Assembly: GCA_964016885.1 (NCBI GenBank)
Contig: CAXHJY010000889.1
Span: 62,001 to 126,000 of the forward strand
Reading direction: 5' to 3'
Source of the DNA: Eledone cirrhosa
Taxonomy: Eukaryota
Length of the DNA stretch: 64,000 nucleotides
How positions within the stretch are numbered: the stretch's first letter is position 1; each line of letters opens with the position of its first letter. Shown here in pieces: positions 12,626 through 52,470 of the stretch. The notes beneath the pieces are model-generated. The model was not told where the DNA came from and did no database searches. It saw only the letters and a list, made by a program, of their open reading frames with translations. The translations under genes were made by a program, and so were the position numbers.

Positions 12626-15600
12626 TTTAAGTCTAAGGCTTGATGTTGGGGTTTAAGTCTATGTCTAAGGGTTGGGGTTGGGGTTTAAGTCTAAGTCTAA
12701 AGCTTGTATTTGTGGTTCAAGTCTAAGTCTAAGGCTTGAGTTTGGGGTTTATGTGTAAGTCTAAGTTTAAGGTTACGTCTAAGGCTAGGGGTTGGGGTTT
12801 AAATCTAAGTCTGAGGCTTGGGTTTGGGGTTTAAATGTAAGCTTTGGGTTGGGGTTAACGTCTAAGTCTAAGGCTTGTGGTTAGGGTTTAAGTCTAAGTT
12901 TAGGGGTTGGTGTTTAAGTTTACGTCTAAGGCTAGGGGTTGGGGTTAAGTCTAAGTCTAAGCGTTGCGCTATAAGTCTAAGTCTGAGGCTTGAGGTTGGG
13001 GTTTAAGTCTAAGTCTAAGGCTTTGGGTTGGGGTTTAAGCCTAAGTCGAAGACTTGGCTTTTGGGTTTAAGTCTAAGGCTTGTGTTTATGGTTTAATTCT
13101 TGGGTTTGGGGTTTAAGTGTAAATCTAAGGCTAATGAGTTGGTGTTTAAGTGTAAGTCTAATGCTAGTGGTTGGGGTTTAAGTCTAACTTGGGGTTGGGG
13201 TTCAACTCTGAGGCTAAAGCTTGGGGTTGGGGTTTAAGTCTATGTCTAAGGCTTGGTTTGGGTTTAAGTTTATTTACGATTAAGACATGTTGTTAGGGTT
13301 TAATTGTAAGGCTTGCTGTTGTGGTTTAAGTCTATGTATAAAGCTTTGGGTTAGGGTTTAATTCTAATTCTAAGGCTTTGGTTTGGGGTTAATGTCTACG
13401 TCTAAGGCTTGAGGTTGGGGTTTAAGTCTAAGCCTAAGTTTTAGAGTTGGGGTTTAAGTCTAAGTTTAAGGGTTGGGTTTAAATCTAAATCCTGGAGTTG
13501 GGCTTTAAGTCTAAGTCTAAGGCTTGGGGTTGGGGTGTAATTCTGAGTCTAAGGCTGAGGGTTGACGTTTAATTCTAAGTCTAAGCCTTGGAGTTGGGGT
13601 TTAAGTCTAAGGCTTTTAGTTGGACTTTCAGTCTAAGTCTAAGTCTTGGGTTTGAGGTTTAAGTCTAAGTCTAATGCTTTGGGTTGAGGTTTAAGTCTAA
13701 GTCTAAGACTTGGGGTTGGGGTTTAAGTCTAAGTCTAAGTCTTGGGGTTTGAGTTTAAATCTAAGCTTGGAGCTGCGGTTGAAGTCTAAGTCTAAGTCAT
13801 GTGGTTGGGGTTTAAATATATGTCTATGGCTTGTTGTTTATGTCTAAGTCTAAGACTTTGGGTTGTGGTTTAAGTCAAAGGTTTGGGGTTGGGGTTTAAG
13901 TTTAAGTCTAAGGCTAGGAGTTGGTGTTTAAGTCTAACACTAAGGCTTAGGGTTGGGGTTTATGTCTAAGCCTTGTGGTTATGGTTTAATTCAAAAGCTT
14001 GGAGTTGGGGTTTAAGCCTAAGTCTAAAGCTTGGGGTTGGGGTTTAAGCCTAAGGCTTCGGGTTAAGGTCTAAGTGCAAGACTTGGTGTTAGGGTTTAAA
14101 TCTAAGTCTAATGCTAGTGGTTGGGTTTTAAGTCTAAGGCTTGGGCTTGTGATTTAAGTCTAAGGCTAAGGCTTGGGGTTTGGGTTTAAGTCTATCTCTA
14201 AGGCTTGGTGTTGGGGATTAAATCTATGTCTAAGGCTTTGGGTTGTGATTTAAGTCTAAGTCTAAGGCCTGGGGTTGAGGTTTAAATCTAAGTCTAAGGC
14301 TTGGGGTTGGTGTTTAATGTAAAGTCTAAGGCTAGTAGTTGGGTCTCAAGTCTAAGTCTAAGCCTTGGGGTTGACGTTAAAATCTAAGTCTAAGGCTTGA
14401 GGTTGGCGTTTAAGTCTACGTCTAAGGCTTGAGGTTGGGGCTTAAATCTATGTCTATGGCTTGGGGTTTAAGTCTAAATCTAAGGCTTATGTTTGGGGTA
14501 AGTTTTAAGTCTAAGGCTTGGGATTGGGATTTAAGTTTAAATCTAAGGCTTGGGGTTAGGGTTTAAGTTTAAGTCTATAGCTTCGGTATGGGGTTTAAGT
14601 TTAATTCTAAGGCTTTTGGTAGAGGTTTAAGTCTGCGACTAAGGCTTGGGGTTGGTCTCTAAGTCTAAGGCTTGGGGTTGGGGTTTAAGTCTAAGTCTTA
14701 TGCTTGTGGTTGGGTTTCAAATCTAAGTCCAACATTTGCGCTTGATCTTCAAGTCTAACTCTAAGGCTTGGGATTGGGGTGTAAGTCTAAGTCAAAGGCT
14801 TGTGGTTGGGGTTTAAATCTATCTCTAAGGCTTGGGGTTAAAGTCTAAGTCTACAGCTTAATATTGGCGAGTAAGTCTAAGTCTAAGGATTGGTGTTGGG
14901 GATTATATCTATGACTAAGGCTTTGGTTGTGTTTTAAGTCTATGTCTAAGGCCTGGGGCTGGTATTTAAATCTAAGTCTAAGGATTGGGGGTCGAGGTTT
15001 AAGACTAAATTTAAGGCTGGGGGTTGGGGTTTAATGTTAAGTCAAAGGCTAGGAGTTGGTATTTAAGTCAAAGTCTAAGGCTTGGGGATGGGGTTTGTGT
15101 CTAAGGCTTGTGGTTATAGTTTAATTCTGAGGCTTGGAGCTGGGGTTTAACTCTAAGTCTAAGTCTTGAGGTTGGGGTTTAAATCTATGTCTATGGCGTG
15201 GAGTTTAAGTCTAAGTCTAATGCTAGTGGTTGGGTTTTAAGTCTAAGTCTTAGGCTTGGGGTTGGGGTTCAAGTCTAAGTCTAAGGCTTAAGGTTGGGGT
15301 TAAGTCTAAGTCTAAGACTTGGGGTTGGGGTTTAAGTCTAAGTTTAAGGCTTGGAGCTGGGGTTTAACTCTAAGTCTAAGTCTTGAGGTTGGGGTTTAAA
15401 TCTATGTCTATGGCGTGGAGTTTAAGTCTAAGTCTAATGCTAGTGGTTGGGTTTTAAGTCTAAGTCTTAGGCTTGGGGTTCAAGTCTAAGTCTAAGGCTT
15501 AAGGTTGGGGTTAAGTCTAAGTCAAAAGGTTGGGGTTTAAGTCTAAGGCTTGGGGTTAGGGTTTATGTCTAAGGCTTGGTGTTGGGGGTTTAAGTCTAAG

Positions 15601-18600
15601 TCTAAGGATTGGGTTTAAGTCTAAGTCTAAGTCTAGTTGTTGGGATTTAAGTCCAAATCTAAGACTTGGGGTTGGGATTCAACTCTAAGTCTAAGGCTTG
15701 GTGTTGGGGTTTGAATCTATGTGTATGGCTTGGGGTTTAACTCGAAGTCTAAGGCTTAATGTTGGGGTTTAAGTCTAAGTCTAATGCTATTGGTTGGGGT
15801 TTATGTCGATGTCTAAAGCTTCGGGTTGGGGTTTAAGTTTAAGTCTAAGGCTTGGATTTTGGGTTTAAGTCTAAGTCTAAGTCTAATGTGGTTGGGGTTT
15901 AAGACCAAGTCTAAGGCTCGGAGCTGGGGTTTAAGTCTATTGCTAAGTCTTGAGGTTGGTGTTTAAATCTATGTCTATGGCTTGGAGTTTAAGTCTAAGT
16001 CTAATACTAGTGGTTAGGTTTTAAGTCTAAGTCTAAGGCTTGGGGTTGAGGTTCAAGTCTAAGTCTAAGGCTTGAGGTTGGGGTTTAAGTCTACGTCTAA
16101 GGTTTGAGGTTGGTGTTTAAATCTATGTCTATGGCTTGGGGTTTAAGTCTAAATCTAAGACTTATGGTTGGGGTAAGTCTAAGTCTAATGCTTGTGGTTG
16201 GGGTTTAAGTCTAAATCTAAGACTTTCGGTTGGGGTTTAAGTTTACAAGCTGGGCTAAGGCTTGGGGTTAGGTTTTAAGTCTAAGGCTTGAGGTTGGGGT
16301 TTAAGTCTAAGTCTAAGTCTTGAAGTTGAGGTTTAAATCTATGTCTATGGCTTGGAGTTTAAGTCTAAGTCTAATGCTAGTGGTTGGGGTTTAAGTCTAA
16401 GTCTAAGGCTTGGGGTTAGGGTTTAAGTTTAAGTCTAAAGCTTCGGTTTGGGGTTTCAGTTTAATTCGAAGGCTTTCGGTAGAGGTTTAAGTCTACGACT
16501 AAGGCTTGGTGTTGGTTTTTAAGTGTAAGGTTTAAGTCTAAGTCTTATGCTTGTGGTTGGGGTTTAAGTCGAAGTCTAAGGCTTGGGCTTGGTGTATAAA
16601 TCTAAGTCTAACGCTTGTGCTTGATCTTCAAGTCTAACTCTATGGTTTGGGGTTGTGGTGTAAATCTAAGTCTAAGGCTTGGGGTTCGGGTTTAAATCTA
16701 AGTCTAAGGCTTGGTGTTGGGGTTTGAGTCTAAGTATAAGGCGTGTGGTTGGGGTTTATGTCTAAGACTAAGGCATGGGGTAAGGGTTTAAGTCTAAGGC
16801 TAAGGCTTGGGGTTAGGATGTGAGTATAAATCTAATGCTTGGCGTTAGGGTTTAAGTCTAAGTCTAAGGCTTGGGTTTGGGGTATAAATCTAATTATAAG
16901 GATAAGGTTGGGGTTCGGGTTTAAGACTAAGTGTTGTGGTTAGGATTTAATTCTAAGGCTTGGCGTTGGGGTTTACGTCTAAGTCTAAAGCTTGGGGTAG
17001 GGGTTTAAGTCATGTCGAAGGCTTGGAGTTTAAGTCTAACTCTAAGGCTTTGGTTTGGGGTTTAAGACTACGTGTAAGGCTTGAGGTTGGGGTTTAAGTC
17101 TAAGTCTTGGAGTTGGGGTTTAATTTTACGTCTAAGGCTTGGGTTTGTGGTTTAAGTCTAAGTCTAAGAGTTGGTATTAGTCTTTAAATCTAAGGCTTGG
17201 ATTTGGGGTGTAAGTCTAAGTCTAAGGCTTGTGGTTGGGGTCTAAATCCATGTCTAAGGCTTAGGGTTTAAGTCTAAGTCTAAAGCTTAATGTTGGGGAT
17301 TAAGTCTAAGTCTAAGACTTAAGGTTGGGGTTTAAGTCTACGTCTAAGGCTTGTGGTTGGGTTTTATGTAGAAGTCTAAACATGGGGTTGGGGTTTAAGT
17401 CTATGTCTAAGGCTTGGGATTGGGGTTTAAGTCTAAGTCTAAGGATTTGTGTTGGTTTTTAAGTTTACGTGTTGGGGTTTGGGGTTAAGTTGTAAGTCTA
17501 AAGCTTGTTATAAGGGTTTAATTCTAAGGCTTGGGGTTGTGGTTTAAGTCTATGTATAAGACTTGGGGTTGGGGTTTAATTCTAAGTCTAAGGCTTTGGT
17601 TTGGGGTTAGTGTCTAAGTCTAAGGCTTGAGGTTGGGATTTAAATCTAAGTCTAAGTCTTGGAGTTGGGGTTTAAGTTTACGTCTAAGGTAAGGGGTTGG
17701 GGTGTAAGTCTAAGTCTAAGGCTTTGGGTTGGGGTTTATGTCTAAGTCTAAGGCTTTGGGTTGGGGTTTAAGTCTAAGTCTAAGCCTTTTGGTTGGTGTT
17801 TAAGTGTATGTCTAAGGGTTGGTGTTGGATTTAAGTCTAAGTCAAATGCTTGGGTTTGGGCTTTATGTCTAAGTCTAAGTCTTGGGGTTGGGGTTTAAGT
17901 CTAAGTTTAAAGCTTGGAGCTGGGGTTTAACTCTAAGTCTAAGTCTTGAGGTTGGGGTTTAAATCTATGTCTATGGCGTGGAGTTTAAGTCTAAGTCTAA
18001 TGCTAGTGGTTGGGTTTTAAGTCTAAGTCAAATGCTTGGGTTTGGGCTTTATGTCTAAGTCTAAGTCTTGGGGTTGGGGTTTAAGTCTAAGTTTAAGGCT
18101 TGGAGCTGGGGTTTAACTCTAAGTCTAAGTCTTGAGGTTGGGGTTTAAATCTATGTCTATGGCGTGGAGTTTAAGTCTAAGTCTAATGCTAGTGGTTGGG
18201 TTTAAAGTCTAAGTCTTAGGCTTGGGGTTGGGGTTCAAGTCTAAGTCTAAGGCTTAAGGTTGGGGTTAAGTCTAAGTCTAAGACTTGGGGTTGGGGTTTA
18301 AGTCTAAGTTTAAGGCTTGGAGCTGGGGTTTAACTCTAAGTCTAAGTCTTGAGGTTGGGGTTTAAATCTATGTCTATGGCGTGGAGTTTAAGTCTAAGTC
18401 TAATGCTAGTGGTTGGGTTTTAAGTCTAAGTCTTAGGCTTGGGGTTCAAGTCTAAGTCTAAGGCTTAAGGTTGGGGTTAAGTCTAAGTCAAAAGGTTGGG
18501 GTTTAAGTCTAAGGCTTGGGGTTAGGGTTTATGTCTAAGGCTTGGTGTTGGGGGTTTAAGTCTAAGGATTGGGTTTAAGTCTAAGTCTAAGTCTAGTTGT

Positions 18601-19441
18601 TGGGATTTAAGTCCAAATCTAAGACTTGGGGTTGGGATTCAACTCTAAGTCTAAGGCTTGGTGTTGGGGTTTGAATCTATGTGTATGGCTTGGGGTTTAA
18701 CTCGAAGTCTAAGGCTTAATGTTGGGGTTTAAGTCTAAGTCTAATGCTATTGGTTGGGGTTTATGTCGATGTCTAAAGCTTCGGGTTGGGGTTTAAGTTT
18801 AAGTCTAAGGCTTGGATTTTGGGTTTAAGTCTAAGTCTAAGTCTAATGTGGTTTAAGACCAAGTCTAAGGCTTGGAGCTGGGGTTTAAGTCTATTGCTAA
18901 GTCTTGAGGTTGGTGTTTAAATCTATGTCTATGGCTTGGAGTTTAAGTCTAAGTCTAATACTAGTGGTTAGGTTTTAAGTCTAAGTCTAAGGCTTGGGGT
19001 TGAGGTTCAAGTCTAAGTCTAAGGCTTGAGGTTGGGGTTTAAGTCTACGTCTAAGGTTTGAGGTTGGTGTTTAAATCTATGTCTATGGCTTGGGGTTTAA
19101 GTCTAAATCTAAGACTTATGGTTGGGGTAAGTCTAAGTCTAATGCTTGTGGTTGGGGTTTAAGTCTAAATCTAAGACTTTCGGTTGGGGTTTAAGTTTAC
19201 AAGCTGGGCTAAGGCTTGGGGTTAGGTTTTAAGTCTAAGGCTTGAGGTTGGGGTTTAAGTCTAAGTCTAAGTCTTGAAGTTGAGGTTTAAATCTATGTCT
19301 ATAGCTTGGAGTTTAAGTCTAAGTCTAATGCTAGTGGTTGGGGTTTAAGTCTAAGTCTAAGGCTTGGGGTTAGGGTTTAAGTTTAAGTCTAAAGCTTCGG
19401 TTTGGGGTTTATGTCTAAGTCTAAGTCTTGGGGTTGGGGTT
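12626..19441 (+). repeat. SatB block 1: G-rich telomere-like minisatellite, 32 bp consensus TTGGGGTTGGGGTTTAAGTCTAAGTCTAAGGC
   Basis: Hexamer-built units (TTGGGG, TTTAAG, TCTAAG) with degenerate monomers; G-rich and C-poor on the + strand. Confidence 0.97.
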
Positions 19442-22400
19442 TAAATCTAAAAAAAACGTAACAAATTAATGCTTTTACAAATCTTTCGAAATATCTACTT
19501 CCTGGCTTCAAATTTTGCAGATTAAACTTTTTTCGAAAAACCTAAAAAAATCAGTTTTCGAAATCAGAAGTTAATATTTCGAAAAACGCAATTTGAAAAA
19601 CGCATATTAATTTTTTTTATACTTTTATATCTGATTTTTTTATACTTTTATATCAGATTTTTTTATACTTTTATATCAGATTTTTTTATACTTTTATATC
19701 TGATTTCAAATATTGATTTTTTTAGGTTTTTCGAAAACTTTATATAATCAATTTTTTTTAGTTTTTTCTAAAAAGAGTTCATAGTCGAAATATATACTTC
19801 CGCATTAATCTTTTTACGTCTTTCTGATTTTTTGCATGTTTCGAAATCTAAAAAAAACGTAACAAATTAATGCTTTTACAAATCTTTCGAAATATCTACT
19901 TCCTGGTTTCAAATTTTGCAGATTAAACTCTTTTCGAAAAACCTAAAAAAATCAGTTTTCGAAATCAGAAGTTAATACTTCGAAAAACACAATTTGAAAA
20001 ACGCAATTTGAAAAACACATATTAATTTTTTTTCGAAAACTTTATATAATCAATTTTTTTATACTTTTAAAAATATTTATATCTGATTTCAAATATTGAT
20101 TTTTTTAGGTTTTTCGAAACCTTATATAATCAATTTTTTTTAGTTTTTTCGAAATATATACTTCTGCATTAATCTTTTTACGTTATTCTGATGTTTTGCA
20201 TATTTCGAAATCTAAAAAAAATGTAAAAATTTAATGCTTTTACAAATCTTTAGAAATATTTACTTTCTGGTTTCAAATTTTGCAGATTAAATTTTTTTCG
20301 AAAAACCTAAAAAAATCATTTTTTGAAATGAGAAGTTAATATTTCGGAAAATGCAATTCGGAAAACGCATATTAATTTTTTTTCGAAAACCTTATATAAT
20401 CGATTTTTTTATACTTTTAGAAATATTTATATCCGATTTCAAATATTGATTTTTTTAGGTTTTTCGAAAACCTTATATAATCAATTTTTTAATACTTTTA
20501 TATCTGATTTTTTTATACTTTTATATCTGATTTCAAATATTGATTTTTTTAGGTCTTTCGAAAACCTTATATAATCAAATTTTTTTAGTTTTTTCGAAAA
20601 AGAGTTCATAGTCGAAATATATACTTCCGCATTAATCTTTTTACGTTTTTCTGATTTTTTGCATGTTTCGAAATCTAAAAAAACCGTAAAAAATTAATGC
20701 TTTTACAAATCTTTAGAAATATTTACTTTCTGGTTTCAAATTTTGCAGATTAAATTTTTTTCGAAAAACCTAAAAAATCAGTTTTCGAAATCAGAAGTTA
20801 ATATTTCGAAATATTGATTTTTTTTAGGTTTTTCGAAAACCTTATATAATTAATTTTTTTAAGGTTTTTCGAAAAAGAGTTCATATATACTTCTGCATTA
20901 ATCTTTTTACGTTTTTCGGTTTTTTTGCATGTAAATCTAAAAAAAACGTAACAAATTAATGCTTTTACAAATCTTTCGAAATATCTACTTCCTGGTTTCA
21001 AATTTTGCAGATTAAACTTTTTTCGAAAAACCTAAAAAAATCAGTTTTGGAAATCAGAAGTTAATATTTCGAAAAACGCAATTTGAAAAACGCAATTTGA
21101 AAAACACATATTAATTTTTTTTCGAAAACTTTATATAATCAATTTTTTTATACTTTTAAAAATATTTATATCTGATTTCAAATATTGATTTTTTTAGGTT
21201 TTTCGGAACCTTATATAATCAATTTTTTTTAGGTTTTTCGAAATATATACTTCTGCATTAATCTTTTTACGTTATTCTGATTTGCATATTTCGAAATCTA
21301 AAAAAAACGTAAAAAATTGATTTTACAAATAATCAATTTTTTTATACTTTTAGAAATATTTATATCTTATTTCAAATATTGATTTTTTAGGTTTTTCGAA
21401 AAAATTGATTATATAAATAATCAATTTTTCTTAGGTTTTTCGAAAAAAGAATGACTGTGAGTCATAGTCGAAATATATACTTCTGTATTAATCTTTTTAC
21501 GTTTTTCAGATTTTTTGCATGTTTCGAAATCTAAAAAAAACGTAAAAAATTAATGCTTTTACAAATCTTTAGAAATATTTACTTTCTGGTTTCAAATTTT
21601 GCAGATTAAATTTTTTTCGAAAAACCTAAAAAAATCAGTTTTCGAAATTAGAAGTTAATATTTCGGAAAATGCAATTTGGAAAACGCATATTAATTTTTT
21701 TTCGAAAACCTTATATAATCGATTTTTTTATACTTTTAGAAATATTTATATCCGATTTCAAATATTGATTTTTTTAGGTTTTTCGAAAACCTTATATAAT
21801 CAATTTTTTTATACTTTTATATCTGATTTCAAATATTGATTTTTTTAGGTTTTTCGAAAACCTTATATAATCAATTTTTTTTAGTTTTTTCGAAAAAGAG
21901 TTCATAGTCAAAATATATACTTCCGCATTAATCTTTTTACGTTTTTCTGATTTTTTGCATGTTTCGAAATCTAACAATAACGTAAAAAATTAATGCTTTT
22001 ACAAATCTTTAGAAATATTTACTTTCTGGTTTCAAATTTTGCAGATTAAATTTTTTTCGAAAAACCTAAAAAATCAGTTTTCGAAATCAGAAGTTAATAT
22101 TTCGAAATATTGATTTTTTTTAGGTTTTTCGAAAACCTTATATAATTAATTTTTTTTATGTTTTTCGAAAAAGAGTTCATATATACTTCTGCATTAATCT
22201 TTTTACGTTTTTCGGTTTTTTTGCATGTAAATCTAAAAAAAACGTAACAAATTAATGCTTTTACAAATCTTTCGAAATATCTACTTCCTGGTTTCAAATT
22301 TTGCAGATTAAACTTTTTTCGAAAAACCTAAAAAAATCAGTTTTCGAAATCAGAAGTTAATACTTCGAAAAACGCAATTTGAAAAACGCAATTTGAAAAA

Positions 22401-25400: not shown

Positions 25401-27740
25401 ACTTTTAAAAATATTTATATCTGATTTCAAATATTGATTTTTTTAGGTTTTTCGGAACCTTATATAATCAATTTTTTTTAGGTTTTTCGAAATATATACT
25501 TCTGCATTAATCTTTTTACGTTATTCTGATTTTTTGCATATTTCGAAATCTAAAAAAAACGTAAAAATTTAATGCTTTTACAAATCTTTCGAAATATTTA
25601 CTTTCTGGTTTCAAATTTTGTAGATTAAATTTTTTTCGAAAAACCTAAAAAAATCAGTTTTCGAAATCAGAAGTTAATATTTAGAAAAAAGCAATTTGGA
25701 AAACGCATATTAATTTTTTTTCGAAAACCTTATATAATCGATTTTTTTATACTTTTAGAAATATTTATATCCGATTTCAAATATTGATTTTTTTAGGTTT
25801 TTCGAAAACCTTATATAATCAATTTTTTTATACTTTTATATCTGATTTCAAATATTGATTTTTTTAGGTTTTTCGAAAACCTTATATAATCAATTTTTTT
25901 TAGTTTTTTCTAAAAAGAGTTCATAGTCGAAATATATACTTCCGCATTAATCTTTTTACGTTTTTCTGATTTTTTGCATGTTTCGAAATCTAACAAAAAC
26001 GTAAAAAATTAATGCTTTTACAAATCTTTAGAAATATTTACTTTCTGGTTTCAAATTTTGCAGATTAAATTTTTTTCGAAAAACCAAAAAAATCAGTTTC
26101 GAAATCAGAAGTTAATATTTCGAAATATTGATTTTTTTTAGGTTTTTCGAAAAAGAGTTCATATATACTTCTGCATTAATCTTTTTACGTTTTTCGGTTT
26201 TTTTGCATGTAAATCTAAAAAAAACGTAACAAATTAATACTTTTACAAATCTTTCGAAATATCTACTTCCTGGTTTCAAATTTTGCAGATTAAACTTTTT
26301 TCGAAAAACCTAAAAAAATCAGTTTTCGAAATCAGAAGTTAATATTTCGAAAAATGCAATTTGAAAAACGCATATTAATTTTTTTTCGAAAACCTTAAAT
26401 AATCGATTTTTTTATACTTTTAGAAATATTTATATCTGATTTCAAATATTGATTTTTTTAGGTTTTTCGAAAACCTTATATAATCAATTTTTTTTAGTTT
26501 TTTTGAAAAAGAGTTCATAGTCGAAATATATACTTCCGCATTAATCTTTTTACGTTTTTCTGATCTTTTGCATGTTTCGAAATTTAAAAAAAACGTAAAA
26601 AATTAATGCTTTTACAAATAATCAATTTTTTTATACTTTTAGAAATATTTATATCTTATTTCAAATATTGATTTTTTAGGTTTTTCGAAAAAATTGATTA
26701 TATAAATAATCAATTTTTTTTAGGTTTTTCGAAAAAAGAATGACTGTGAGTCATAGTCGAAATATATACTTCGGCATTAATCTTTTTACGTTTTTCTGAT
26801 TTTTTGCATGTTTCGAAATCTAAAAAAAAACTTAAAAAATTAATGCTTTTACAAATCTTTAGAAATATTTACTTTCTGGTTTCAAATTTTGCAGATTAAA
26901 TTTTTTTCGAAAAACCTAAAAAATTAGTTTTCGAAATCAGAAGTTAATATTTCGAAATATTGATTTTTTTTAGGTTTTTCGAAAACCTTATATAAGTAAT
27001 TTTTTTTAGGTTTTTCGAAACATTAATCTTTTTACGTTTTTTGGTTTTTTTGCATGTAAATCTAAAAAAAACGTAACAAATTAGTGCTTTTACAAATCTT
27101 TCGAAATATCTACTTCCTGGTTTCAAATTTTGCAGATTAAACTTTTTTCGAAAAACCTAAAAAAATCAGTTTTCGAAATCAGAAGTTAATACTTCGAAAA
27201 ACGCAATTTGAAAAACGCAATTTGAAAAACACATTAATTTTTTTTCGAAAACTTTATATCAATTTTTTTATACTTTTAAAAATATTTATATCTGATTTCA
27301 AATATTGATTTTTTTAGGTTTTTCGAAATATATACTTCTGCATTAATCTTTTTACGTTATTCTGATTTTTTGCATATTTCGAAATCTAAAAAAAACGTAA
27401 AAATTTAATGCTTTTACAAATCTTTCGAAATATTTACTTTCTGGTTTCAAATTTTGCAGATTAAATTTTTTTCGAAAAACCTAAAAAAATCAGTTTTCGA
27501 AATTAGAAGTTAATATTTTGGAAAATGCAATTTGGAAAACGCATATTAATTTTTTTTCGAAAACCTTATATAATCGATTTTTTTATACTTTTAGAAATAT
27601 TTATATCTGATTTCAAATATTGATTTTTTTATAAAAATCAGTTTTTGAATTCAGAAGTTAATATTTCGAAAAACGCAAATCAATTTGTTTATACTTTTAG
27701 AAATATTTATAACTGATTTCAAATATTGATTTTTTTTAGG
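19442..27740. repeat. SatA block 2 (about 8.30 kb)
   Basis: Same modules and orientation as block 1; ends in the same diagnostic terminal monomer (…TTTTTGAATTCAGAAG…ATAACTG…). Confidence 0.97.
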
Positions 27741-40500: not shown

Positions 40501-42856
40501 TTTCGAAAACCTTATATAATCAATTTTTTTATACTTTTAAAAATATTTATATCTGATTTCAAATATTGATTTTTTTAGGTTTTTCGGAACCTTAATTATA
40601 TAATCAATTTTTTTTTAGGTTTTTCGAAATATATACTTCTGCATTAATCTTTTTACGTTATTCTGATTTTTTGCATATTTCGAAATCTAAAAAAAACGTA
40701 AAAATTTAATGCTTTTACAAATCTTTCGAAATATTTACTTTCTGGTTTCAAATTTTGCAGATTAAATTTTTTTCGAAAAACCTAAAAAAATCAGTTTTCG
40801 AAATCAGAAGTTAATATTTCGGAAAATGCAATTTGGAAAACGCATATTAATTTTTTTTCGAAAACCTTATATAATCGATTTTTTTATACTTTTAGAAATA
40901 TTTATATCCGATTTCAAATATTGATTTTTTTAGGTTTTTCGAAAACCTTATATAATCAATTTTTTTATACTTTTATATCTGATTTTTTTATACTTTTATA
41001 TCTGATTTCAAATATTGATTTTTTTAGGTCTTTCGAAAACCTTATATAATCAATTTTTTTTAGTTTTTTCGAAAAAGAGTTCATAGTCGAAATATATACT
41101 TCCGCATTAATCTTTTTACGTTTTTCTGATTTTTTGCATGTTTCGAAATCTAAAAAAAACGTAAAAAATTAATGCTTTTACAAATCTTTAGAAATATTTA
41201 CTTTCTGGTTTCAAATCTTGCAGATTAAATTTTTTTCGAAAAACCTAAAAACTCAGTTTTCGAAATCAGAAGTTAATATTTCGGAAAATGCAATTTGGAA
41301 AACGCATATTAATTTTTTTTCGAAAACCTTATATAATCGATTTTTTTATACTTTTTGAAATATTTATATCCTATTTCAAATATTGATTTTTTTAGGTTTT
41401 TCGAAAACCTTATATAATCAATTTTTTTATACTTTTATATCTGATTTTTTTATACTTTTATATCTGATTTCAAATATTGATTTTTTTAGGTTTTTCGAAA
41501 ACCTTATATAATCAATTTTTTTTAGTTTTTTCTAAAAAGAGTTCATAGTCGAAATATATACTTCCGCATTAATCTTCTTACGTTTTTCTGATTTTTTGCA
41601 TGTTTCGAAATCTAAAAAAAACGTAAAAAATTAATGCTTTTACAAATCTTTAGAAATATTTACTTTCTGGTTTCAAATTTTGCAGATTAAATTTTTTTCG
41701 AAAAACCTAAAAAATCAGTTTTCTAAATCAGAAGTTAATATTTCGAAATATTGATTTTTTTTAGGTTTTTCGAAAACCTTATATAATTAATTTTTTTTAG
41801 TTTTTTCGAAAAAGAGTTCATATATACTTCTGCATTAATCTTTTTACGTTTTTCTGATTTTTTGCATGTTTCGAGATCTAAAAAAAACGTAAAAATTTAA
41901 TGCTTTTACAAATCTTTCGAAATATTTACTTTCTGGTTTCAAATTCTGCAGATTAAACTTTTTTCGAAAAACCTAAAAAAATCAATTTTCGAAATCAGAA
42001 GTTAATATTTAGAAATATTGATTTTTTTTTAGGTTTTTCGAAAACCTTATATAATTAATTTTTTTTAGGTTTTTCGAAAAAGAGTTCATATATACTTCTG
42101 CATTAATCTTTTTACGTTTTTCTGATTTTTTGCATGTTTCGAAATCTAAAAAAAACGTAAAAATTTAATGCTTTTACAAATCTTTCGAAATATTTACTTT
42201 CTGGTTTCAAATTTTGCAGATTAAATTTTTTTCGAAAAACCTAAAAAAATCAGTTAATATTTTAAAAAAAGAAGTTAATATTTCGAAAAACGCAATTTGA
42301 AAAGCGCATATTCATTTTTTTTTCGAAAACCTTATATAATCAATTTGTTTATACTTTTAGAAATATTTATATCTGATTTCAAATATTGATTTTTTTAGGT
42401 TTTTCGGAACCTTATATAATCAATTTTTTTTAGGTTTTTCGAAATATATACTTCTGCATTAATCTTTTTACGTTATTCTGATTTTTTGCATATTTCGAAA
42501 TTTAAAAAAAACGTAAAAATTTAATGCTTTTACAAATCTTTCGAAATATTTACTTTCTGGTTTCAAATTTTGCAGATTAAATTTTTTTCGAAAAACCTAA
42601 AAAAATCAGTTTTCGAAATTAGAAGTTAATATTTTGGAAAATGCAATTTGGAAAACGCATATTAATTTTTTTTCGAAAACCTTATATAATCGATTTTTTT
42701 ATACTTTTAGAAATATTTATATCTGATTTCAAATATTGATTTTTTTATAAAAATCAGTTTTTGAATTCAGAAGTTAATATTTCGAAAAACGCAAATCAAT
42801 TTGTTTATACTTTTAGAAATATTTATAACTGATTTCAAATATTGATTTTTTTTAGG
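34563..42856. repeat. SatA block 3 (about 8.29 kb)
   Basis: Same first monomer (CCTGGCTTC variant) and last monomer as block 2, but a different internal monomer order. Confidence 0.97.
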
Positions 42857-45800
42857 TTTAAGTCTAAGGCTTGATGTTGGGGTTTAAGTCTATGTCTAAG
42901 GGTTGGGGTTGGGGTTTAAGTCTAAGTCTAAAGCTTGTATTTGTGGTTCAAGTCTAAGTCTAAGGCTTGAGTTTGGGGTTTATGTGTAAGTCTAAGTTTA
43001 AGGTTACGTCTAAGGCTAGGGGTTGGGGTTTAAATCTAAGTCTGAGGCTTGGGTTTGGGGTTTAAATGTAAGCTTTGGGTTGGGGTTAACGTCTAAGTCT
43101 AAGGCTTGTGGTTAGGGTTTAAGTCTAAGTTTAGGGGTTGGTGTTTAAGTTTACGTCTAAGGCTAGGGGTTGGGGTTAAGTCTAAGTCTAAGCGTTGCGC
43201 TATAAGTCTAAGTCTGAGGCTTGAGGTTGGGGTTTAAGTCTAAGTCTAAGGCTTTGGGTTGGGGTTTAAGCCTAAGTCGAAGACTTGGCTTTTGGGTTTA
43301 AGTCTAAGGCTTGTGTTTATGGTTTAATTCTTGGGTTTGGGGTTTAAGTGTAAATCTAAGGCTAATGAGTTGGTGTTTAAGTGTAAGTCTAATGCTAGTG
43401 GTTGGGGTTTAAGTCTAACTTGGGGTTGGGGTTCAACTCTGAGGCTAAAGCTTGGGGTTGGGGTTTAAGTCAAAGGTTTGGGGTTGGGGTTTAAGTTTAA
43501 GTCTAAGGCTAGGAGTTGGTGTTTAAGTCTAACACTAAGGCTTAGGGTTGGGGTTTATGTCTAAGCCTTGTGGTTATGGTTTAATTCAAAAGCTTGGAGT
43601 TGGGGTTTAAGCCTAAGTCTAAAGCTTGGGGTTGGGGTTTAAGCCTAAGGCTTCGGGTTAAGGTCTAAGTGCAAGACTTGGTGTTAGGGTTTAAATCTAA
43701 GTCTAATGCTAGTGGTTGGGTTTTAAGTCTAAGGCTTGGGCTTGTGATTTAAGTCTAAGGCTAAGGCTTGGGGTTTGGGTTTAAGTCTATCTCTAAGGCT
43801 TGGTGTTGGGGATTAAATCTATGTCTAAGGCTTTGGGTTGTGATTTAAGTCTAAGTCTAAGGCCTGGGGTTGAGGTTTAAATCTAAGTCTAAGGCTTGGG
43901 GTTGGTGTTTAATGTAAAGTCTAAGGCTAGTAGTTGGGTCTCAAGTCTAAGTCTAAGCCTTGGGGTTGACGTTAAAATCTAAGTCTAAGGCTTGAGGTTG
44001 GCGTTTAAGTCTACGTCTAAGGCTTGAGGTTGGGGCTTAAATCTATGTCTATGGCTTGGGGTTTAAGTCTAAATCTAAGGCTTATGTTTGGGGTAAGTTT
44101 TAAGTCTAAGGCTTGGGATTGGGATTTAAGTTTAAGTCTAAGGCTTGGGGTTAGGGTTTAAGTTTAAGTCTAAAGCTTCGGTATGGGGTTTAAGTTTAAT
44201 TCTAAGGCTTTTGGTAGAGGTTTAAGTCTGCGACTAAGGCTTGGGGTTGGTCTCTAAGTCTAAGGCTTGGGGTTGGGGTTTAAGTCTAAGTCTTATGCTT
44301 GTGGTTGGGTTTCAAATCTAAGTCTAACATTTGCGCTTGATCTTCAAGTCTAACTCTAAGGCTTGGGATTGGGGTGTAAGTCTAAGTCAAAGGCTTGTGG
44401 TTGGGGTTTAAATCTATCTCTAAGGCTTGGGGTTAAAGTCTAAGTCTACAGCTTAATGTTGGCGAGTAAGTCTAAGTCTAAGGATTGGTGTTGGGGATTA
44501 TATCTATGACTAAGGCTTTGGTTGTGTTTTAAGTCTATGTCTAAGGCCTGGGGCTGGTATTTAAATCTAAGTCTAAGGATTGGGGGTCGAGGTTTAAGAC
44601 TAAATTTAAGGCTTGGGGTTGGGGTTTAATGTTAAGTCAAAGGCTAGGAGTTGGTATTTAAGTCAAAGTCTAAGGCTTGGGGATGGGGTTTGTGTCTAAG
44701 ACTTGTGGTTATAGTTTAATTCTGAGGCTTGGAGTTAGGGTTTAAGTCTAAGTCTAATGCTAGATGTAGGGGTTTAAGTGTAAGTCTAAGGCTTGGGGTT
44801 GGGGTTCGAGTCTAAGTCTAAGGCTTGCGGTTGGGGTTTAAGTCTTGTGGTTGGGTTTTATGTCGAAGTCAAACCTTGGGGTCGGGGTTTAAGTCTAAGT
44901 CTAAGTCTTGGAGTTGGGGTGTAAGTCTAAGTCTAAGGCTTGGGGTTGGGGTTTAAGTCTAAGTCTAAGCCTTTTGGTTGGGGTTTAAGTGTATGTCTAA
45001 GGGTTGGTGTTGGATTTAAGTCTAAGTCAAATGCTTGGGTTTGGGCTTTATGTCTAAGTCTATGTCTTGGGGTTGGGGTTTAAGTCTAAGTTTAAGGCTT
45101 GGAGCTGGGGTTTAACTCTAAGTCTAAGTCTTGAGGTTGGGGTTTAAATCTATGTCTATGGCGTGGAGTTTAAGTCTAAGTCTAATGCTAGTGGTTGGGT
45201 TTTAAGTCTAAGTCTTAGGCTTGGGGTTGGGGTTCAAGTCTAAGTCTAAGGCTTAAGGTTGGGGTTAAGTCTAAGTCTAAGACTTGGGGTTGGGGTTTAA
45301 GTCTAAGTTTAAGGCTTGGAGCTGGGGTTTAACTCTAAGTCTAAGTCTTGAGGTTGGGGTTTAAATCTATGTCTATGGCGTGGAGTTTAAGTCTAAGTCT
45401 AATACTAGTGGTTAGGTTTTAAGTCTAAGTCTAAGGCTTGGGGTTGAGGTTCAAGTCTAAGTCTAAGGCTTGAGGTTGGGGTTTAAGTCTACGTCTAAGG
45501 TTTGAGGTTGGTGTCTATGGCTTGGGGTTTAAGTCTAAATCTAAGACTTATGGTTGGGGTAAGTCTAAGTCTAATGCTTGTGGTTGGGGTTTAAGTCTAA
45601 ATCTAAGACTTTCGGTTGGGGTTTAAGTTTACAAGCTGGGCTAAGGCTTGGGGTTAGGTTTTAAGTCTAAGGCTTGAGGTTGGGGTTTAAGTCTAAGTCT
45701 AAGTCTTGAAGTTGAGGTTTAAATCTATGTCTATGGCTTGGAGTTTAAGTCTAAGTCTAATGCTAGTGGTTGGGGTTTAAGTCTAAGTCTAAGGCTTGGG

Positions 45801-48800
45801 GTTAGGGTTTAAGTTTAAGTCTAAAGCTTCGGTTTGGGGTTTCAGTTTAATTCGAAGGCTTTCGGTAGAGGTTTAAGTCTACGACTAAGGCTTGGTGTTG
45901 GTTTTTAAGTGTAAGGTTTAAGTCTAAGTCTTATGCTTGTGGTTGGGGTTTAAGTCGAAGTCTAAGGCTTGGGCTTGGTGTATAAATCTAAGTCTAACGC
46001 TTGTGCTTGATCTTCAAGTCTAACTCTATGGTTTGGGGTTGTGGTGTAAATCTAAGTCTAAGGCTTGGGGTTCGGGTTTAAATCTAAGTCTAAGGCTTGG
46101 TGTTGGGGTTTGAGTCTAAGTATAAGGCGTGTGGTTGGGGTTTATGTCTAAGACTAAGGCATGGGGTAAGGGTTTAAGTCTAAGGCTAAGGCTTGGGGTT
46201 AGGATGTGAGTATAAATCTAATGCTTGGCGTTAGGGTTTAAGTCTAAGTCTAAGGCTTGGGTTTGGGGTATAAATCTAATTATAAGGATAAGGTTGGGGT
46301 TCGGGTTTAAGACTAAGTGTTGTGGTTAGGATTTAATTCTAAGGCTTGGCGTTGGGGTTTACGTCTAAGTCTAAAGCTTGGGGTAGGGGTTTAAGTCATG
46401 TCGAAGGCTTGGAGTTTAAGTCTAACTCTAAGGCTTTGGTTTGGGGTTTAAGACTACGTGTAAGGCTTGAGGTTGGGGTTTAAGTCTTGGAGTTGGGGTT
46501 TAATTTTACGTCTAAGGCTTGGGTTTGTGGTTTAAGTCTAAGTCTAAGAGTTGGTATTAGTCTTTAAATCTAAGGCTTGGATTTGGGGTGTAAGTCTAAG
46601 TCTAAGGCTTGTGGTTGGGGTTTAAATCCATGTCTAAGGCTTAGGGTTTAAGTCTAAGTCTAAAGCTTAATGTTGGGGATTAAGTCTAAGTCTAAGACTT
46701 AAGGTTGGGGTTTAAGTCTACGTCTAAGGCTTGTGGTTGGGTTTTATGTAGAAGTCTAAACATGGGGTTGGGGTTTAAGTCTATGTCTAAGGCTTGGGAT
46801 TGGGGTTTAAGTCTAAGTCTAAGGATTTGTGTTGGTTTTTAAGTTTACGTGTTGGGCTAAGACTTGGGTTTGGGGTTAAGTTGTAAGTCTAAAGCTTGTT
46901 ATAAGGGTTTAATTCTAAGGCTTGGGGTTGTGGTTTAAGTCTATGTATAAGACTTGGGGTTGGGGTTTAATTCTAAGTCTAAGGCTTTGGTTTGGGGTTA
47001 GTGTCTAAGTCTAAGGCTTGAGGTTGGGATTTAAATCTAAGTCTAAGTCTTGGAGTTGGGGTTTAAGTTTACGTCTAAGGTAAGGGGTTGGGGTGTAAGT
47101 CTAAGTCTAAGGCTTTGGGTTGGGGTTTATGTCTAAGTCTAAGGCTTTGGGTTGGGGTTTAAGTCTAAGTCTAAGCCTTTTGGTTGGGGTTTAAGTGTAT
47201 GTCTAAGGGTTGGTGTTGGATTTAAGTCTAAGTCAAATGCTTGGATTTGGGCTTTATGTCTAAGTCTAAGTCTTGGGGTTGGGGTTTAAGTCTAAGTTTA
47301 AGGCTTGGAGCTGGGGTTTAACTCTAAGTCTAAGTCTTGAGGTTGGGGTTTAAATCTATGTCTATGGCGTGGAGTTTAAGTCTAAGTCTAATGCTAGTGG
47401 TTGGGTTTTAAGTCTAAGTCAAATGCTTGGGTTTGGGCTTTATGTCTAAGTCTAAGTCTTGGGGTTGGGGTTTAAGTCTAAGTCTAAGGCTTGGAGCTGG
47501 GGTTTAACTCTAAGTCTAAGTCTTGAGGTTGGGGTTTAAATCTATGTCTATGGCGTGGAGTTTAAGTCTAAGTCTAATGCTAGTGGTTGGGTTTTAAGTC
47601 TAAGTCTTAGGCTTGGGGTTGGGGTTGAAGTCTAAGTCTAAGGCTTAAGGTTGGGGTTAAGTCTAAGTCTAAGACTTGGGGTTGGGGTTTAAGTCTAAGT
47701 TTAAGGCTTGGAGCTGGGGTTTAACTCTAAGTCTAAGTCTTGAGGTTGGGGTTTAAATCTATGTCTATGGCGTGGAGTTTAAGTCTAAGTCTAATGCTAG
47801 TGGTTGGGTTTTAAGTCTAAGTCTTAGGCTTGGGGTTCAAGTCTAAGTCTAAGGCTTAAGGTTGGGGTTAAGTCTAAGTCAAAAGGTTGGGGTTTAAGTC
47901 TAAGGCTTGGGGTTAGGGTTTATGTCTAAGGATTGGTGTTGGGGGTTTAAGTCTAAGTCTAAGGATTGGGTTTAAGTCTAAGTCTAAGTCTAGTTGTTGG
48001 GATTTAAGTCCAAATCTAAGACTTGGGGTTGGGATTCAACTCTAAGTCTAAGGCTTGGTGTTGGGGTTTGAATCTATGTGTATGGCTTGGGGTTTAACTC
48101 GAAGTCTAAGGCTTAATGTTGGGGTTTAAGTATAAGTCTAATGCTATTGGTTGGGGTTTATGTCGATGTCTAAAGCTTCGGGTTGGGGTTTAAGTTTAAG
48201 TCTAAGGCTTGGATTTTGGGTTTAAGTCTAAGTCTAAGTCTAATGTGGTTGGGGTTTAAGACCAAGTCTAAGGCTTGGAGCTGGGGTTTAAGTCTATTGC
48301 TAAGTCTTGAGGTTGGTGTTTAAATCTATGTCTATGGCTTGGAGTTTAAGTCTAAGTCTAATACTAGTGGTTAGGTTTTAAGTCTAAGTCTAAGGCTTGG
48401 GGTTGAGGTTCAAGTCTAAGTCTAAGGCTTGAGGTTGGGGTTTAAGTCTACGTCTAAGGTTTGAGGTTGGTGTTTAAATCTATGTCTATGGCTTGGGGTT
48501 TAAGTCTAAATCTAAGACTTATGGTTGGGGTAAGTCTAAGTCTAATGCTTGTGGTTGGGGTTTAAGTCTAAATCTAAGACTTTCGGTTGGGGTTTAAGTT
48601 TACAAGCTGGGCTAAGGCTTGGGGTTAGGTTTTAAGTCTAAGGCTTGAGGTTGGGGTTTAAGTCTAAGTCTAAGTCTTGAAGTTGAGGTTTAAATCTATG
48701 TCTATGGCTTGGAGTTTAAGTCTAAGTCTAATGCTACTGGTTGGGGTTTAAGTCTAAGTCTAAGGCTTGGGGTTAGGGTTTAAGTTTAAGTCTAAAGCTT

Positions 48801-50819
48801 CGGTTTGGGGTTTCAGTTTAATTCGAAGGCTTTCGGTAGAGGTTTAAGTCTACGACTAAGGCTTGGTGTTGGTTTTTAAGTGTAAGGTTTAAGTCTAAGT
48901 CTTATGCTTGTGGTTGGGGTTTAAGTCGAAGTCTAAGGCTTGGGCTTGGTGTATAAATCTAAGTCTAACGCTTGTGCTTGATCTTCAAGTCTAACTCTAT
49001 GGTTTGGGGTTGTGGTGTAAATCTAAGTCTAAGGCTTGGGGTTCGGGTTTAAATCTAAGTCTAAGGCTTGGTGTTGGGGTTTGAGTCTAAGTATAAGGCG
49101 TGTGGTTGGGGTTTATGTCTAAGACTAAGGCATGGGGTAAGGGTTTAAGTCTAAGGCTAAGGCTTGGGGTTAGGATGTGAGTATAAATCTAATGCTTGGC
49201 GTTAGGGTTTAAGTCTAAGTCTAAGGCTTGGGTTTGGGGTATAAATCTAATTATAAGGATAAGGTTGGGGTTCGGGTTTAAGACTAAGTGTTGTGGTTAG
49301 GATTTAATTCTAAGGCTTGGCGTTGGGGTTTACGTCTAAGTCTAAAGCTTGGGGTAGGGGTTTAAGTCATGTCGAAGGCTTGGAGTTTAAGTCTAACTCT
49401 AAGGCTTTGGTTTGGGGTTTAAGACTACGTGTAAGGCTTGAGGTTGGGGTTTAAGTCTAAGTCTTGGAGTTGGGGTTTAATTTTACGTCTAAGGCTTGGG
49501 TTTGTGGTTTAAGTCTAAGTCTAAGTGTTGGTATTAGTCTTTAAATCTAAGGCTTGGATTTGGGGTGTAAGTCTAAGTCTAAGGCTTGTGGTTGGGGTTT
49601 AAATCCATGTCTAAGGCTTAGGGTTTAAGTCTAAGTCTAAAGCTTAATGTTGGGGATTAAGTCTAAGTCTAAGACTTAAGGTTGGGGTTTAAGTCTACGT
49701 CTAAGGCTTGTGGTTGGGTTTTATGTAGAAGTCTAAACATGGGGTTGGGGTTTAAGTCTATGTCTAAGGCTTGGGATTGGGGTTTAAGTCTAAGTCTAAG
49801 GATTTGTGTTGGTTTTTAAGTTTACGTGTTGGGCTAAGACTTGGGTTTGGGGTTAAGTTGTAAGTCTAAAGCTTGTTATAAGGGTTTAATTCTAAGGCTT
49901 GGGGTTGTGGTTTAAGTCTATGTATAAGACTTGGGGTTGGGGTTTAATTCTAAGTCTAAGGCTTTGGTTTGGGGTTAGTGTCTAAGTCTAAGGCTTGAGG
50001 TTGGGATTTAAATCTAAGTCTAAGTCTTGGAGTTGGGGTTTAAGTTTACGTCTAAGGTAAGGGGTTGGGGTGTAAGTCTAAGTCTAAGGCTTTGGGTTGG
50101 GGTTTATGTCTAAGTCTAAGGCTTTGGGTTGAGGTTTAAGTCTATGTCTAAGTCTTGGGGTTGGGGTTTAAGTCCAAGTGTTGGGATTGGGATTTAAGTA
50201 TATGTCTAAGTTTGGGGTTTAAGTCTAATGCTAGTGATTTAGTTTTAAGAGTAAGTCTAAGGCTTGGGGTTGGGTTTTAAGTCTATGTCTAAGGCTTGTG
50301 GTTTCTGTTTACGTCTAAGTCTAAGGCTTGAGGTTAAGGTTTAAGTCTATGTCTAATGCTTGGGGTTGGGGTTGGGGTCTAAGTCTTTGGGTTGGAGTTT
50401 AATTCTAAGTTTAAAGCTTGGGTTTACGGTTAGGCTTTAAGACTAAGGCTTGTGGCTGGGGTTCAAGTCTAACTCTAAGGGTTGGGGTTTAAGACTAAAT
50501 CAGAGGTTTGGGGTTGGGGTTTACGTCTAAGTCTAAGACTAGGAGTTGGGGTTCAAATCTAAGTCTAACCTTTGGGGTTGGGGTTTAAGTCTAAGTCTAA
50601 ACTTGCAGTTGGGGTTCAAGTCTAAGTCTAAGGCTTGAGTTTGCGGTTTAAGTCTAAGTCTAATTTTAAGGTTACGTCTAAGGCTAGGGGTTTGGGTTTA
50701 GTCTAAGTCTAAGGGTTGGGGTTTGGGTTTAAGTCTAAGTCTAAGGCTTGGCGTTTGGGTTTAAGTCTAAGGCTTGTGTTTATGGTTTAATTCTAAGGCT
50801 TGTAGTTGGGGATTACGTC
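42857..50819 (+). repeat. SatB block 3 (about 7.96 kb, rearranged variant)
   Basis: Same start as blocks 1 and 2, a deletion of about 0.64 kb at ~43470, extra units at ~44730-45050, and a private diverged tail at ~50130-50819. Confidence 0.96.
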
Positions 50820-52387: not shown

Positions 52388-52431
52388 ATAGATTGCGTAG
52401 GACTTACCTCGCCCTCAAACCACATAATGAC

Positions 52432-52433
<2 letters not shown>

Positions 52434-52469
<36 letters not shown>
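52434..52469 (+). repeat. Poly-G tract (36 G)
   Basis: Uninterrupted G run, counted directly. Confidence 0.95.

Positions 52470-52470
<1 letters not shown>

What the first reader, a model, noticed from the sequence alone, without database searches (positions are those of the whole stretch)
12626..50819. About 15.1 kb macro-repeat alternating an AT-rich satellite with a telomere-like G-rich satellite
Seen: the same SatA-to-SatB junction ends at 12625, 27740 and 42856 (spacing 15115 and 15116 bp), and the same SatB-to-SatA junction lies at ~19441 and ~34562 (15121 bp). Two unrelated satellites are thus amplified as one unit in fixed orientation. Inference: a composite higher-order repeat of subtelomeric or pericentromeric chromatin, amplified by unequal exchange, break-induced replication or rolling circle after a single fusion event.
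Basis: partly seen in the sequence, partly recalled or inferred. Interest (0 to 1): 0.72.

Follow-up and report, generated by a model that had tools for sequence, protein, structure and literature searches.

The report
Satellite island duplicated inside another satellite
A block of one repetitive DNA family sits inside an array of an unrelated one and has been duplicated twice with its joints, a kind of mixed repeat already known from flies, beetles, plants and primates, and not the regular 15-kb unit it first appears to be.

Summary
The junctions and spacings are real: three identical SatA-to-SatB junctions lie 15,115 and 15,116 bp apart, and two identical SatB-to-SatA junctions lie 15,121 bp apart. 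They do not form a 15.1-kb tandem unit. Only 53.5% of unit 1 and 3.5% of unit 2 match on that diagonal. The third SatB block is 7,963 bp (others 6,816 and 6,822), rearranged, and ends at a different junction. The two SatA spacers differ in monomer order. The duplicated object is a 7-8 kb SatB island with its junction flanks. It was probably joined into SatA at short microhomologies, then copied twice by unequal exchange within SatA: an older copy at 0.3-0.4% divergence and a recent one at 0.04%. SatA (about 377-bp monomer, 21% GC, hairpin-rich) reshuffles quickly. SatB (32-bp monomer, G/T-skewed) contains no tandem TTAGGG or TTAGG, so a telomeric origin is unsupported. The host is an animal, probably an invertebrate (LINE in the flank). 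The pattern matches Drosophila Rsp-like/1.688 hybrid clusters. One oddity remains: both spacers have 24 monomers and differ by 5 bp despite different order (about 1% by chance). Verdict: new member of a known kind, modest interest.

The parts
1..12625 (+). SatA array A1 (open at the window start). AT-rich satellite (GC about 0.21), monomer variants 225-464 bp, internal kb-scale duplications such as 2687-5829 to 8945-12087
12621..12628 (+). Left junction L, copy 1. SatA ...TTTTAGG meets SatB TTTAAG...; inferred microhomology GGTTT. The preceding ~120 bp of SatA is a diverged, rearranged edge (50/60 and 56/60 best match elsewhere)
12626..19441 (+). SatB block B1 (6,816 bp). 32-bp monomer with 26- and 38-bp variants, GC 0.41, GC skew +0.50, partial internal repeat with period ~2.97 kb (15130-16456 vs 18096-19410)
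19411..19450 (+). Right junction R1, copy 1. A 31-bp piece also found at 17865 and 18051, then TAAATCTAA into SatA; inferred to be a secondary, deletion-derived junction
19442..27740 (+). SatA spacer A2 (8,299 bp, 24 monomers). First ~650 bp shared with A3 (0.77% divergence); most of the rest is a mosaic of blocks also in A1 (0.07-0.26%)
27741..34562 (+). SatB block B2 (6,822 bp), with L at its start and R1 at its end. Differs from B1 by 3 transitions and one 6-bp indel
34563..42856 (+). SatA spacer A3 (8,294 bp, 24 monomers). About 1% diverged from A2 where collinear; monomer order differs from A2 beyond the first ~3.5 kb
42857..50819 (+). SatB block B3 (7,963 bp). Same L junction, 636-bp in-register deletion, 0.27-0.41% from B2 in three collinear segments (0 in the first 615 bp), and a unique tail 50174-50819 (<=79% to anything else in the window)
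50810..50835 (+). Right junction R3, single copy, microhomology TAA; inferred to be the older end of the island
50820..52390 (+). SatA terminal block A4 (~1.57 kb). Monomers of 377-379 bp, the least deleted form; the array ends here against non-satellite DNA

Best explanation
This is the edge of an animal satellite domain in which an island of an old 32-bp G/T-skewed satellite (SatB) is nested in an AT-rich, hairpin-rich satellite (SatA). Steps: (1, inferred) A double-strand break or stalled fork in SatA was repaired by microhomology-mediated joining or template switching to SatB. This gave junction L and probably R3, with loss of a short part of a SatA monomer. (2, inferred from divergence) The island with its SatA flanks was tandemly duplicated by unequal exchange or break-induced copying, with crossover points inside SatA; B3 is one product. 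(3, inferred) In the other copy, a deletion removed the 3' ~2 kb of SatB and created R1. (4, inferred) That shortened island was duplicated again recently, giving B1 and B2 and a hybrid spacer A2 that starts like A3 and continues like A1. (5, shown as a pattern) SatA has been reshuffled in kb-sized blocks while B1 and B2 stayed collinear. The structure is most likely a neutral product of satellite turnover, and the near-equal spacing is most likely a coincidence built on shared ancestry of the spacers.
For: L is identical in 3 of 3 copies; R1 is shared by 2 of 3. Divergence is layered: B1/B2 3 of 6,816 columns (0.044%), B2/B3 0.27-0.41%, A1/A2 blocks 0.065-0.26%, A2/A3 0.77-1.1%. B3 continues past the point paralogous to the end of B1/B2 and has a unique tail. 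Nearest-monomer edit distance: A2 to A1 median 1 (17 of 22 at <=3), A2 to A3 median 7 (7 of 22). Microhomology against 400,000 random SatA/SatB joins: >=5 bp P=0.0056 (L), >=9 bp P=5e-5 (R1), >=3 bp P=0.067 (R3); TAAATCTAA is the most abundant shared 9-mer (20 in SatA, 64 in SatB). SatA folds far better than shuffles (z -4.4 to -7.9 in 7 of 7 windows; 56-nt arms 88% complementary). The same junction signature is described for Rsp-like/1.688 (PMC7403614, passages).
Against: Microhomology lengths rest on inferred parents. If the donor at 17865/18051 is the parent of R1, the match is 8 of 9 with only 3 contiguous bases before the mismatch, and R3 is not significant. A2 is not a simple copy of the present 3' end of A1, so extra rearrangements or an unseen upstream donor must be assumed. 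The model does not predict A2 and A3 both having 24 monomers and lengths within 5 bp (P 0.008-0.010 with fixed counts, 0.0008 with free counts). The direction (B into A, or A into B) and the order of R1 and R3 are inferred from one window.
Confidence: 0.72

Rival explanations
1. Assembly artefact: B1 and B2 (or the A1-B2 and A3-A4 parts) are two haplotypes, or a false duplication, joined in series through the identical sequence around a junction.
For: B1/B2 differ by only 0.044%, with a 3.9-kb exact stretch around J1/J2. The period is close to a typical HiFi read length (recalled). Allelic spacers could share a monomer count.
Against: The 8 differences over 11928-19677 are 7 substitutions and one 6-bp unit indel, none a homopolymer-length change, with private variants on both copies. 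Homopolymer runs agree in 16/16, 76/78 and 35/35 of those in three duplicated segments, so base accuracy is high. B3 differs in structure, so at least two copies are distinct. A2 is closer to A1 than to A3.
Confidence: 0.11
2. Length-constrained composite unit: the ~15.1-kb period is maintained (by in-register pairing anchored on the SatB islands, or by a chromatin loop or selection) while SatA spacer content is exchanged.
For: A2 and A3 both have 24 monomers and are 8,299 and 8,294 bp despite 22 large gaps in their alignment; chance 0.008-0.010. Human Yq12 keeps a near 1:1 DYZ1:DYZ2 unit ratio (10.1101/2022.12.01.518658, passages).
Against: Only one comparison, noticed after the fact in a large scan. 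B3 (7,963), A1 (>=12,625) and A4 (1,571) do not keep the lengths. In Yq12, array lengths vary widely.
Confidence: 0.06
3. SatB is telomere-derived or is a non-canonical telomeric repeat, and the array records repeated healing, fusion or recombination-based telomere elongation.
For: Strict strand bias (GC skew +0.50), 6-bp sub-periodicity, 145 TTGGGG in B1, fixed orientation. L falls just after a TTAGG in SatA. G-rich, oriented composite telomeric repeats exist in Meloidogyne (PMC10844300, passages).
Against: No dimer of TTAGGG, TTAGG, TTAGGC, TCAGG, TTTAGGG or TGTGGG on either strand of the window. TTAGGG (13) is rarer than six other one-step variants of TTGGGG (16-32). No canonical G4 motif with 1-7 nt loops in B1 or B3, and only 6-7% of 25-nt windows reach G4Hunter 1.2. 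The G-strand runs toward 11.6 kb of retroelement and microsatellite DNA, not toward a visible end. B1 and B2 are copies, not independent syntheses.
Confidence: 0.06
4. One reading: a homogeneous 15.1-kb macro-repeat amplified as a unit, for example by rolling circle, after a single fusion.
For: Spacings of 15,115, 15,116 and 15,121 bp; identical L; B1 nearly equal to B2.
Against: Coverage on the unit diagonal is 53.5% and 3.5%. There are two divergence levels, a different third right junction and non-collinear spacers.
Confidence: 0.05

Closest known systems
Drosophila simulans/mauritiana Rsp-like clusters nested in 1.688 satellite (PMC7403614; passages read)
   Same: Two unrelated satellites, one nested in the other; one junction with microhomology (4-7 bp there) shared between copies and a variable second junction; small deletion in the host monomer; mixed clusters proposed to move as higher-order units.
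   Different: There the clusters are dispersed over X euchromatin. Here the islands are 7-8 kb, tandemly arranged, with old diverged 32-bp monomers and an internal 2.97-kb repeat. No eccDNA data here.
Human Yq12 alternating DYZ1/DYZ2 arrays (10.1101/2022.12.01.518658; passages read)
   Same: Alternating arrays of an AT-rich (24% GC) and a less AT-rich (38% GC) repeat; here 21% and 41%.
   Different: Arrays there are 11 kb to 3.6 Mb, number 34-86 and vary widely in length; the units are 2.4 and 3.5 kb. No sequence relationship was tested.
Great-ape subterminal caps: ~32-bp pCht arrays with segmental-duplication spacers (PMC12758386; passages read)
   Same: A 32-bp satellite alternating with a second sequence class; exchange proposed to occur in the spacer.
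   Different: Spacers there are ~30-kb segmental duplications rather than a satellite, arrays are far larger, and the position is known to be terminal.
Tribolium freemani TfSat01/TfSat03 centromeric arrays (PMC12581902; passages read)
   Same: Alternating arrays of two satellites with recurring junction regions and dyad symmetry; linked spreading inferred.
   Different: There the arrays show kb-scale macro-dyads (inversions). Here both satellites keep one orientation and the dyads lie within the SatA monomer.
Cuscuta europaea CUS-TR24/(TAA)n/LINE heterochromatin (PMC8091179; passages read)
   Same: An AT-rich ~390-bp satellite broken by a simpler repeat, with truncated monomers at junctions and later segmental duplication.
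   Different: There the simple repeat grows out of motifs in the monomer. Here SatB monomers are ~20% diverged pairwise, older than the SatA variants, so growth in place is unlikely.

Membership tests
Higher-order repeat / macrosatellite with a 15.1-kb unit | Head-to-tail units collinear and near-identical over their whole length | tested here: not met
   53.5% and 3.5% on the unit diagonal; A2/A3 alignment has 22 large gaps
Higher-order repeat / macrosatellite with a 15.1-kb unit | Constant unit length | tested here: inconclusive
   15,115 and 15,116 bp for two units; the third is broken (7,963 + 1,571 bp) and A1 is >=12,625 bp
Nested hybrid satellite cluster (Rsp-like/1.688 type) | Two satellites unrelated in sequence, one flanked on both sides by the other | tested here: met
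   No shared 13-mer; 3 of 3 SatB blocks flanked by SatA
Nested hybrid satellite cluster (Rsp-like/1.688 type) | One junction shared among copies, the other variable | tested here: met
   L in 3 of 3; R1 in 2, R3 in 1
Nested hybrid satellite cluster (Rsp-like/1.688 type) | Microhomology at the junctions | tested here: met
   L 5 bp (P 0.006), R1 9 bp or 8 of 9, R3 3 bp (P 0.07, not significant); parents inferred
Nested hybrid satellite cluster (Rsp-like/1.688 type) | Spread of the hybrid junction to distant loci; presence on eccDNA | not testable with these tools
   Host genome not available; two exact-pattern scans of prokaryotic genomes found 0, as expected for animal DNA
Interstitial telomeric or telomere-derived satellite | Tandem canonical telomere motif, or its clear enrichment | tested here: not met
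   0 dimers of six canonical motifs; TTAGGG not above other variants of TTGGGG; motif list recalled
Interstitial telomeric or telomere-derived satellite | G-rich strand bias in one orientation | tested here: met
   GC skew +0.50 to +0.51 in 3 of 3 blocks
Interstitial telomeric or telomere-derived satellite | Location at or derived from chromosome ends | not testable with these tools
   Window only; the 3' flank is retroelement and microsatellite DNA
Centromeric satellite (SatA) | AT-rich monomer with dyad symmetry and recent homogenisation (typical, not diagnostic; recalled) | tested here: met
   GC 0.21; folding z -4.45 and -4.4 to -7.9; A1 nearest-monomer distance median 1
Centromeric satellite (SatA) | CENP-A occupancy | not testable with these tools
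   Needs ChIP or CUT&RUN

The most novel reading that the evidence does not exclude
The spacer length between SatB islands is conserved by a ruler-like process (24 monomers, 8.3 kb, period 15.1 kb) even while the SatA monomers inside are shuffled and replaced. That would be a composite satellite whose period, not its sequence, is maintained, possibly as a centromeric or non-canonical telomeric structural unit.
Probability: 0.06. Interest if true: 0.7.

Novelty: new member of a known kind. Interest (0 to 1): 0.3.

Why it matters
It is a base-resolved snapshot of how two unrelated satellites become linked and co-amplify. The island acts as an internal clock: while B1 and B2 gained 3 substitutions and one small indel, the SatA around them was rearranged in kb-sized blocks. 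That allows a direct comparison of structural turnover in a hairpin-rich and a G-skewed satellite at one locus. The two satellite families appear undescribed in the searched library, but new satellite families are routine. It would matter much more if the spacer length proved to be conserved across many copies.

Tried and rejected
Rfam scan of the whole window: 0 matches at gathering score. Exact-pattern scans of genome contigs for the SatB 32-mer and a SatA 37-mer: 0 loci each; these are prokaryotic genomes, so the result says little. Full-text search for six 17-18 nt motifs of the two satellites: 0 papers; supplements are not covered by that search and none were read. ESM Atlas search with the LINE ORF1-like protein: no usable hit. 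Homologue search with the RT fragment: 7,042 of 8,000 scored candidates passed, 120 listed, 2 naming an organism (Octopus 63%, Petrolisthes 48%), so the host clade was not determined. Bacterial promoter/terminator scan of the array edge: chance level and not suited to an animal. A six-frame look at 52391-53700 gave no convincing ORF. A1's start does not continue collinearly into A2 on the 21,823 diagonal (38% over 300 bp), so A1 cannot be read as a fourth unit. A coding minisatellite was rejected: the 32- and 26-bp units break frame. Growth of SatB in place from SatA motifs was rejected on divergence grounds. The phage, plasmid and E. coli collections were not searched.
Full report
Setting. 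The window is animal nuclear DNA. Bases 1 to about 52,390 are satellite, and the rest is retroelement fragments and microsatellites. The flank encodes a frameshifted LINE, with endonuclease PF14529 (E 5.9e-12, in its inverted partial copy) and reverse transcriptase PF00078 (E 2.4e-31); 2 of the 8 ORFs scanned passed a curated Pfam cut-off. Of 120 listed RT homologues, two name an organism: Octopus (63%) and Petrolisthes (48%). An invertebrate host is likely; the clade was not determined.

Observation. Composition alone shows seven blocks: A1 1-12625, B1 12626-19441, A2 19442-27740, B2 27741-34562, A3 34563-42856, B3 42857-50819 and A4 50820-52390. The left junction L is identical in all three copies. 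The right junction is identical for B1 and B2 (R1) and different for B3 (R3). The reported spacings are correct. The satellites share no 13-mer.

It is not a 15.1-kb tandem unit. The 15,115-15,121 diagonals hold from about 11,930 to 19,680 and again from 27,309 to 28,355. Measured per unit, 53.5% of the first and 3.5% of the second match the next. B1 and B2 differ by 3 transitions and one 6-bp indel. B3 has an in-register 636-bp deletion, runs about 2 kb past the point where B1 and B2 stop, and ends in a 646-bp tail at most 79% similar to anything else in the window. A2 and A3 share their first ~650 bp (5 substitutions and a 23-bp unit), one 1.7-kb block at 1.1% and their last few hundred bases. 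Otherwise their monomer order differs. A2 is instead built from blocks found in A1 at 0.065-0.26% divergence, in a different order.

SatA. The least deleted monomer is 377-379 bp (A4); variants run from 225 to 465 bp. The monomer has internal direct repeats at 36, 46, 81 and 85 bp spacing and 18 inverted pairs, the longest with 56-nt arms 88% complementary. I infer that the length variants come from exchange between these internal repeats. As single-stranded DNA it folds far better than dinucleotide shuffles: z -4.45 with 0 of 100 shuffles as good, and -4.4 to -7.9 in 7 of 7 further windows, against -1.4 to -4.2 in 3 SatB windows and -0.45 in one AT-rich flank control. GC is 0.21 and CpG o/e 2.83. 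These features are typical of centromeric or pericentromeric satellites (recalled) but do not identify one.

SatB. The dominant period is 32 bp, with 26- and 38-bp variants made by loss or gain of a hexamer (99, 43 and 7 of the 201 intervals in B1). The 99 32-mers average 88% identity to the consensus and 80% to each other, so the family is old. A ~2.97-kb internal repeat is recent (0.23-0.42%). GC skew is +0.50 and TTGGGG is abundant. No canonical telomere motif among six tested occurs as a dimer (motif list recalled). TTAGGG (13 in B1) is less frequent than TTGGGT 32, TTTGGG 29, TTGAGG 26, TTGGTG 20, TTGTGG 17 and TTGGAG 16. There is no canonical short-loop G4 motif in B1 or B3; motifs with a long central loop occur 7 and 12 times. 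Very ancient descent from a telomeric hexamer cannot be excluded, but nothing here shows it.

Junctions. L joins SatA TAGGTTTTTCG (133 copies) to SatB GGTTTAAG at GGTTT. R1 uses TAAATCTAA, the most abundant 9-mer shared by both satellites. R3 shares only TAA. Random joins give >=5, >=9 and >=3 bp with P 0.0056, 0.00005 and 0.067. The parents are inferred, and the likely SatB donor of R1 matches at 8 of 9. The 120 bp of SatA before L is more diverged than interior tiles (50 and 56 of 60, against 59-60 of 60 in 34 of 34 A2 tiles). This suggests L is old and has escaped homogenisation.

Mechanism. Shown: one L ancestor, two right ends, two levels of divergence between islands, and mosaic spacers. 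Inferred: microhomology-mediated joining of SatB into SatA; an older duplication with crossover in SatA; a deletion creating R1; a recent duplication giving B1, B2 and the hybrid A2; continued block shuffling of SatA, plausibly helped by its hairpins. I put this at 0.72.

The oddity. A2 and A3 each have 24 monomers and measure 8,299 and 8,294 bp. (One 702-bp piece with a missed anchor was split by hand into 440 + 262 in A1 and in A2.) Resampling from 84 observed monomer lengths gives a difference of <=5 bp in 0.79% or 0.95% of 200,000 draws with fixed counts, and 0.08% with counts free between 5 and 40. This is one post hoc comparison, the very feature that got the window flagged, and B3, A1 and A4 break the pattern. 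I treat it as coincidence but cannot explain it away.

Artefact check. All 8 differences between the B1 and B2 regions are substitutions or a unit-length indel, found on both copies. Long homopolymers agree in 16/16, 76/78 and 35/35 cases. That argues against a duplication made from read errors (error profiles recalled). A haplotype join remains possible without reads.

Comparison with known cases. I read passages, not whole texts or supplements, of six papers. PMC7403614 describes Rsp-like arrays inserted in 1.688 with a shared microhomologous junction, a variable second junction and movement of mixed clusters as higher-order units; this is the closest match. Alternating or interleaved arrays are also described for Yq12, ape pCht caps, Tribolium freemani centromeres and Cuscuta heterochromatin, and composite G-rich telomeric repeats for Meloidogyne. 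Seven searches were run; the motif search found no paper printing these sequences. The locus works like a nested hybrid satellite cluster and meets the three features I could test. It fails the collinearity test for a 15.1-kb higher-order repeat and the motif test for a telomere-derived satellite.

Verdict. New member of a known kind; interest 0.3. The novel reading, a conserved period with shuffled content, has probability about 0.06 and would deserve about 0.7.

Noticed in passing
window 59372-63183 (+): Frameshifted LINE: ORF1-like frame with a weak Myb/SANT hit (E 0.005, below cut-off) and a CCCH-type cysteine motif (label recalled), then endonuclease and RT fragments. A CT-rich tract precedes it and a TA microsatellite follows.
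   Followed up: partly
window 57696-58805 (-): Inverted, truncated copy of the same LINE, 93.9% identical to 60519-61566 over 1,110 columns.
   Followed up: partly
window 54023-56950: Possible Penelope-like retroelement fragment: ORFs 54358-55746 and 55710-56036 with a C-N-C...C-P-L motif (assignment recalled; Pfam gave no support). It is preceded by a self-inverted segment 54023-54446 (90%) and followed by degenerate ~150-bp AT-rich repeats at 55983-56950.
   Followed up: partly
window 52434-52469: A run of 36 G about 45 bp after the end of the SatA array, followed by a pyrimidine-rich segment to ~53680 with no convincing ORF. It could be real, a mobile-element end or an assembly scar.
   Followed up: partly
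window SatA blocks, e.g. 19442-27740: SatA has CpG o/e 2.83 (7 TCGA per 379-bp monomer), while SatB is 0.25 and the LINE 0.46. This suggests different methylation or decay histories in adjacent blocks.
   Followed up: no
window 44735-44983: A 249-bp SatB segment in B3 has no copy above 83% elsewhere in the window.
   Followed up: partly
window 2687-12087: A1 contains its own recent 6,258-bp-offset duplication (3.1 kb, 0.16%) and a recurring 1,066-bp three-monomer unit (440+262+364).
   Followed up: partly
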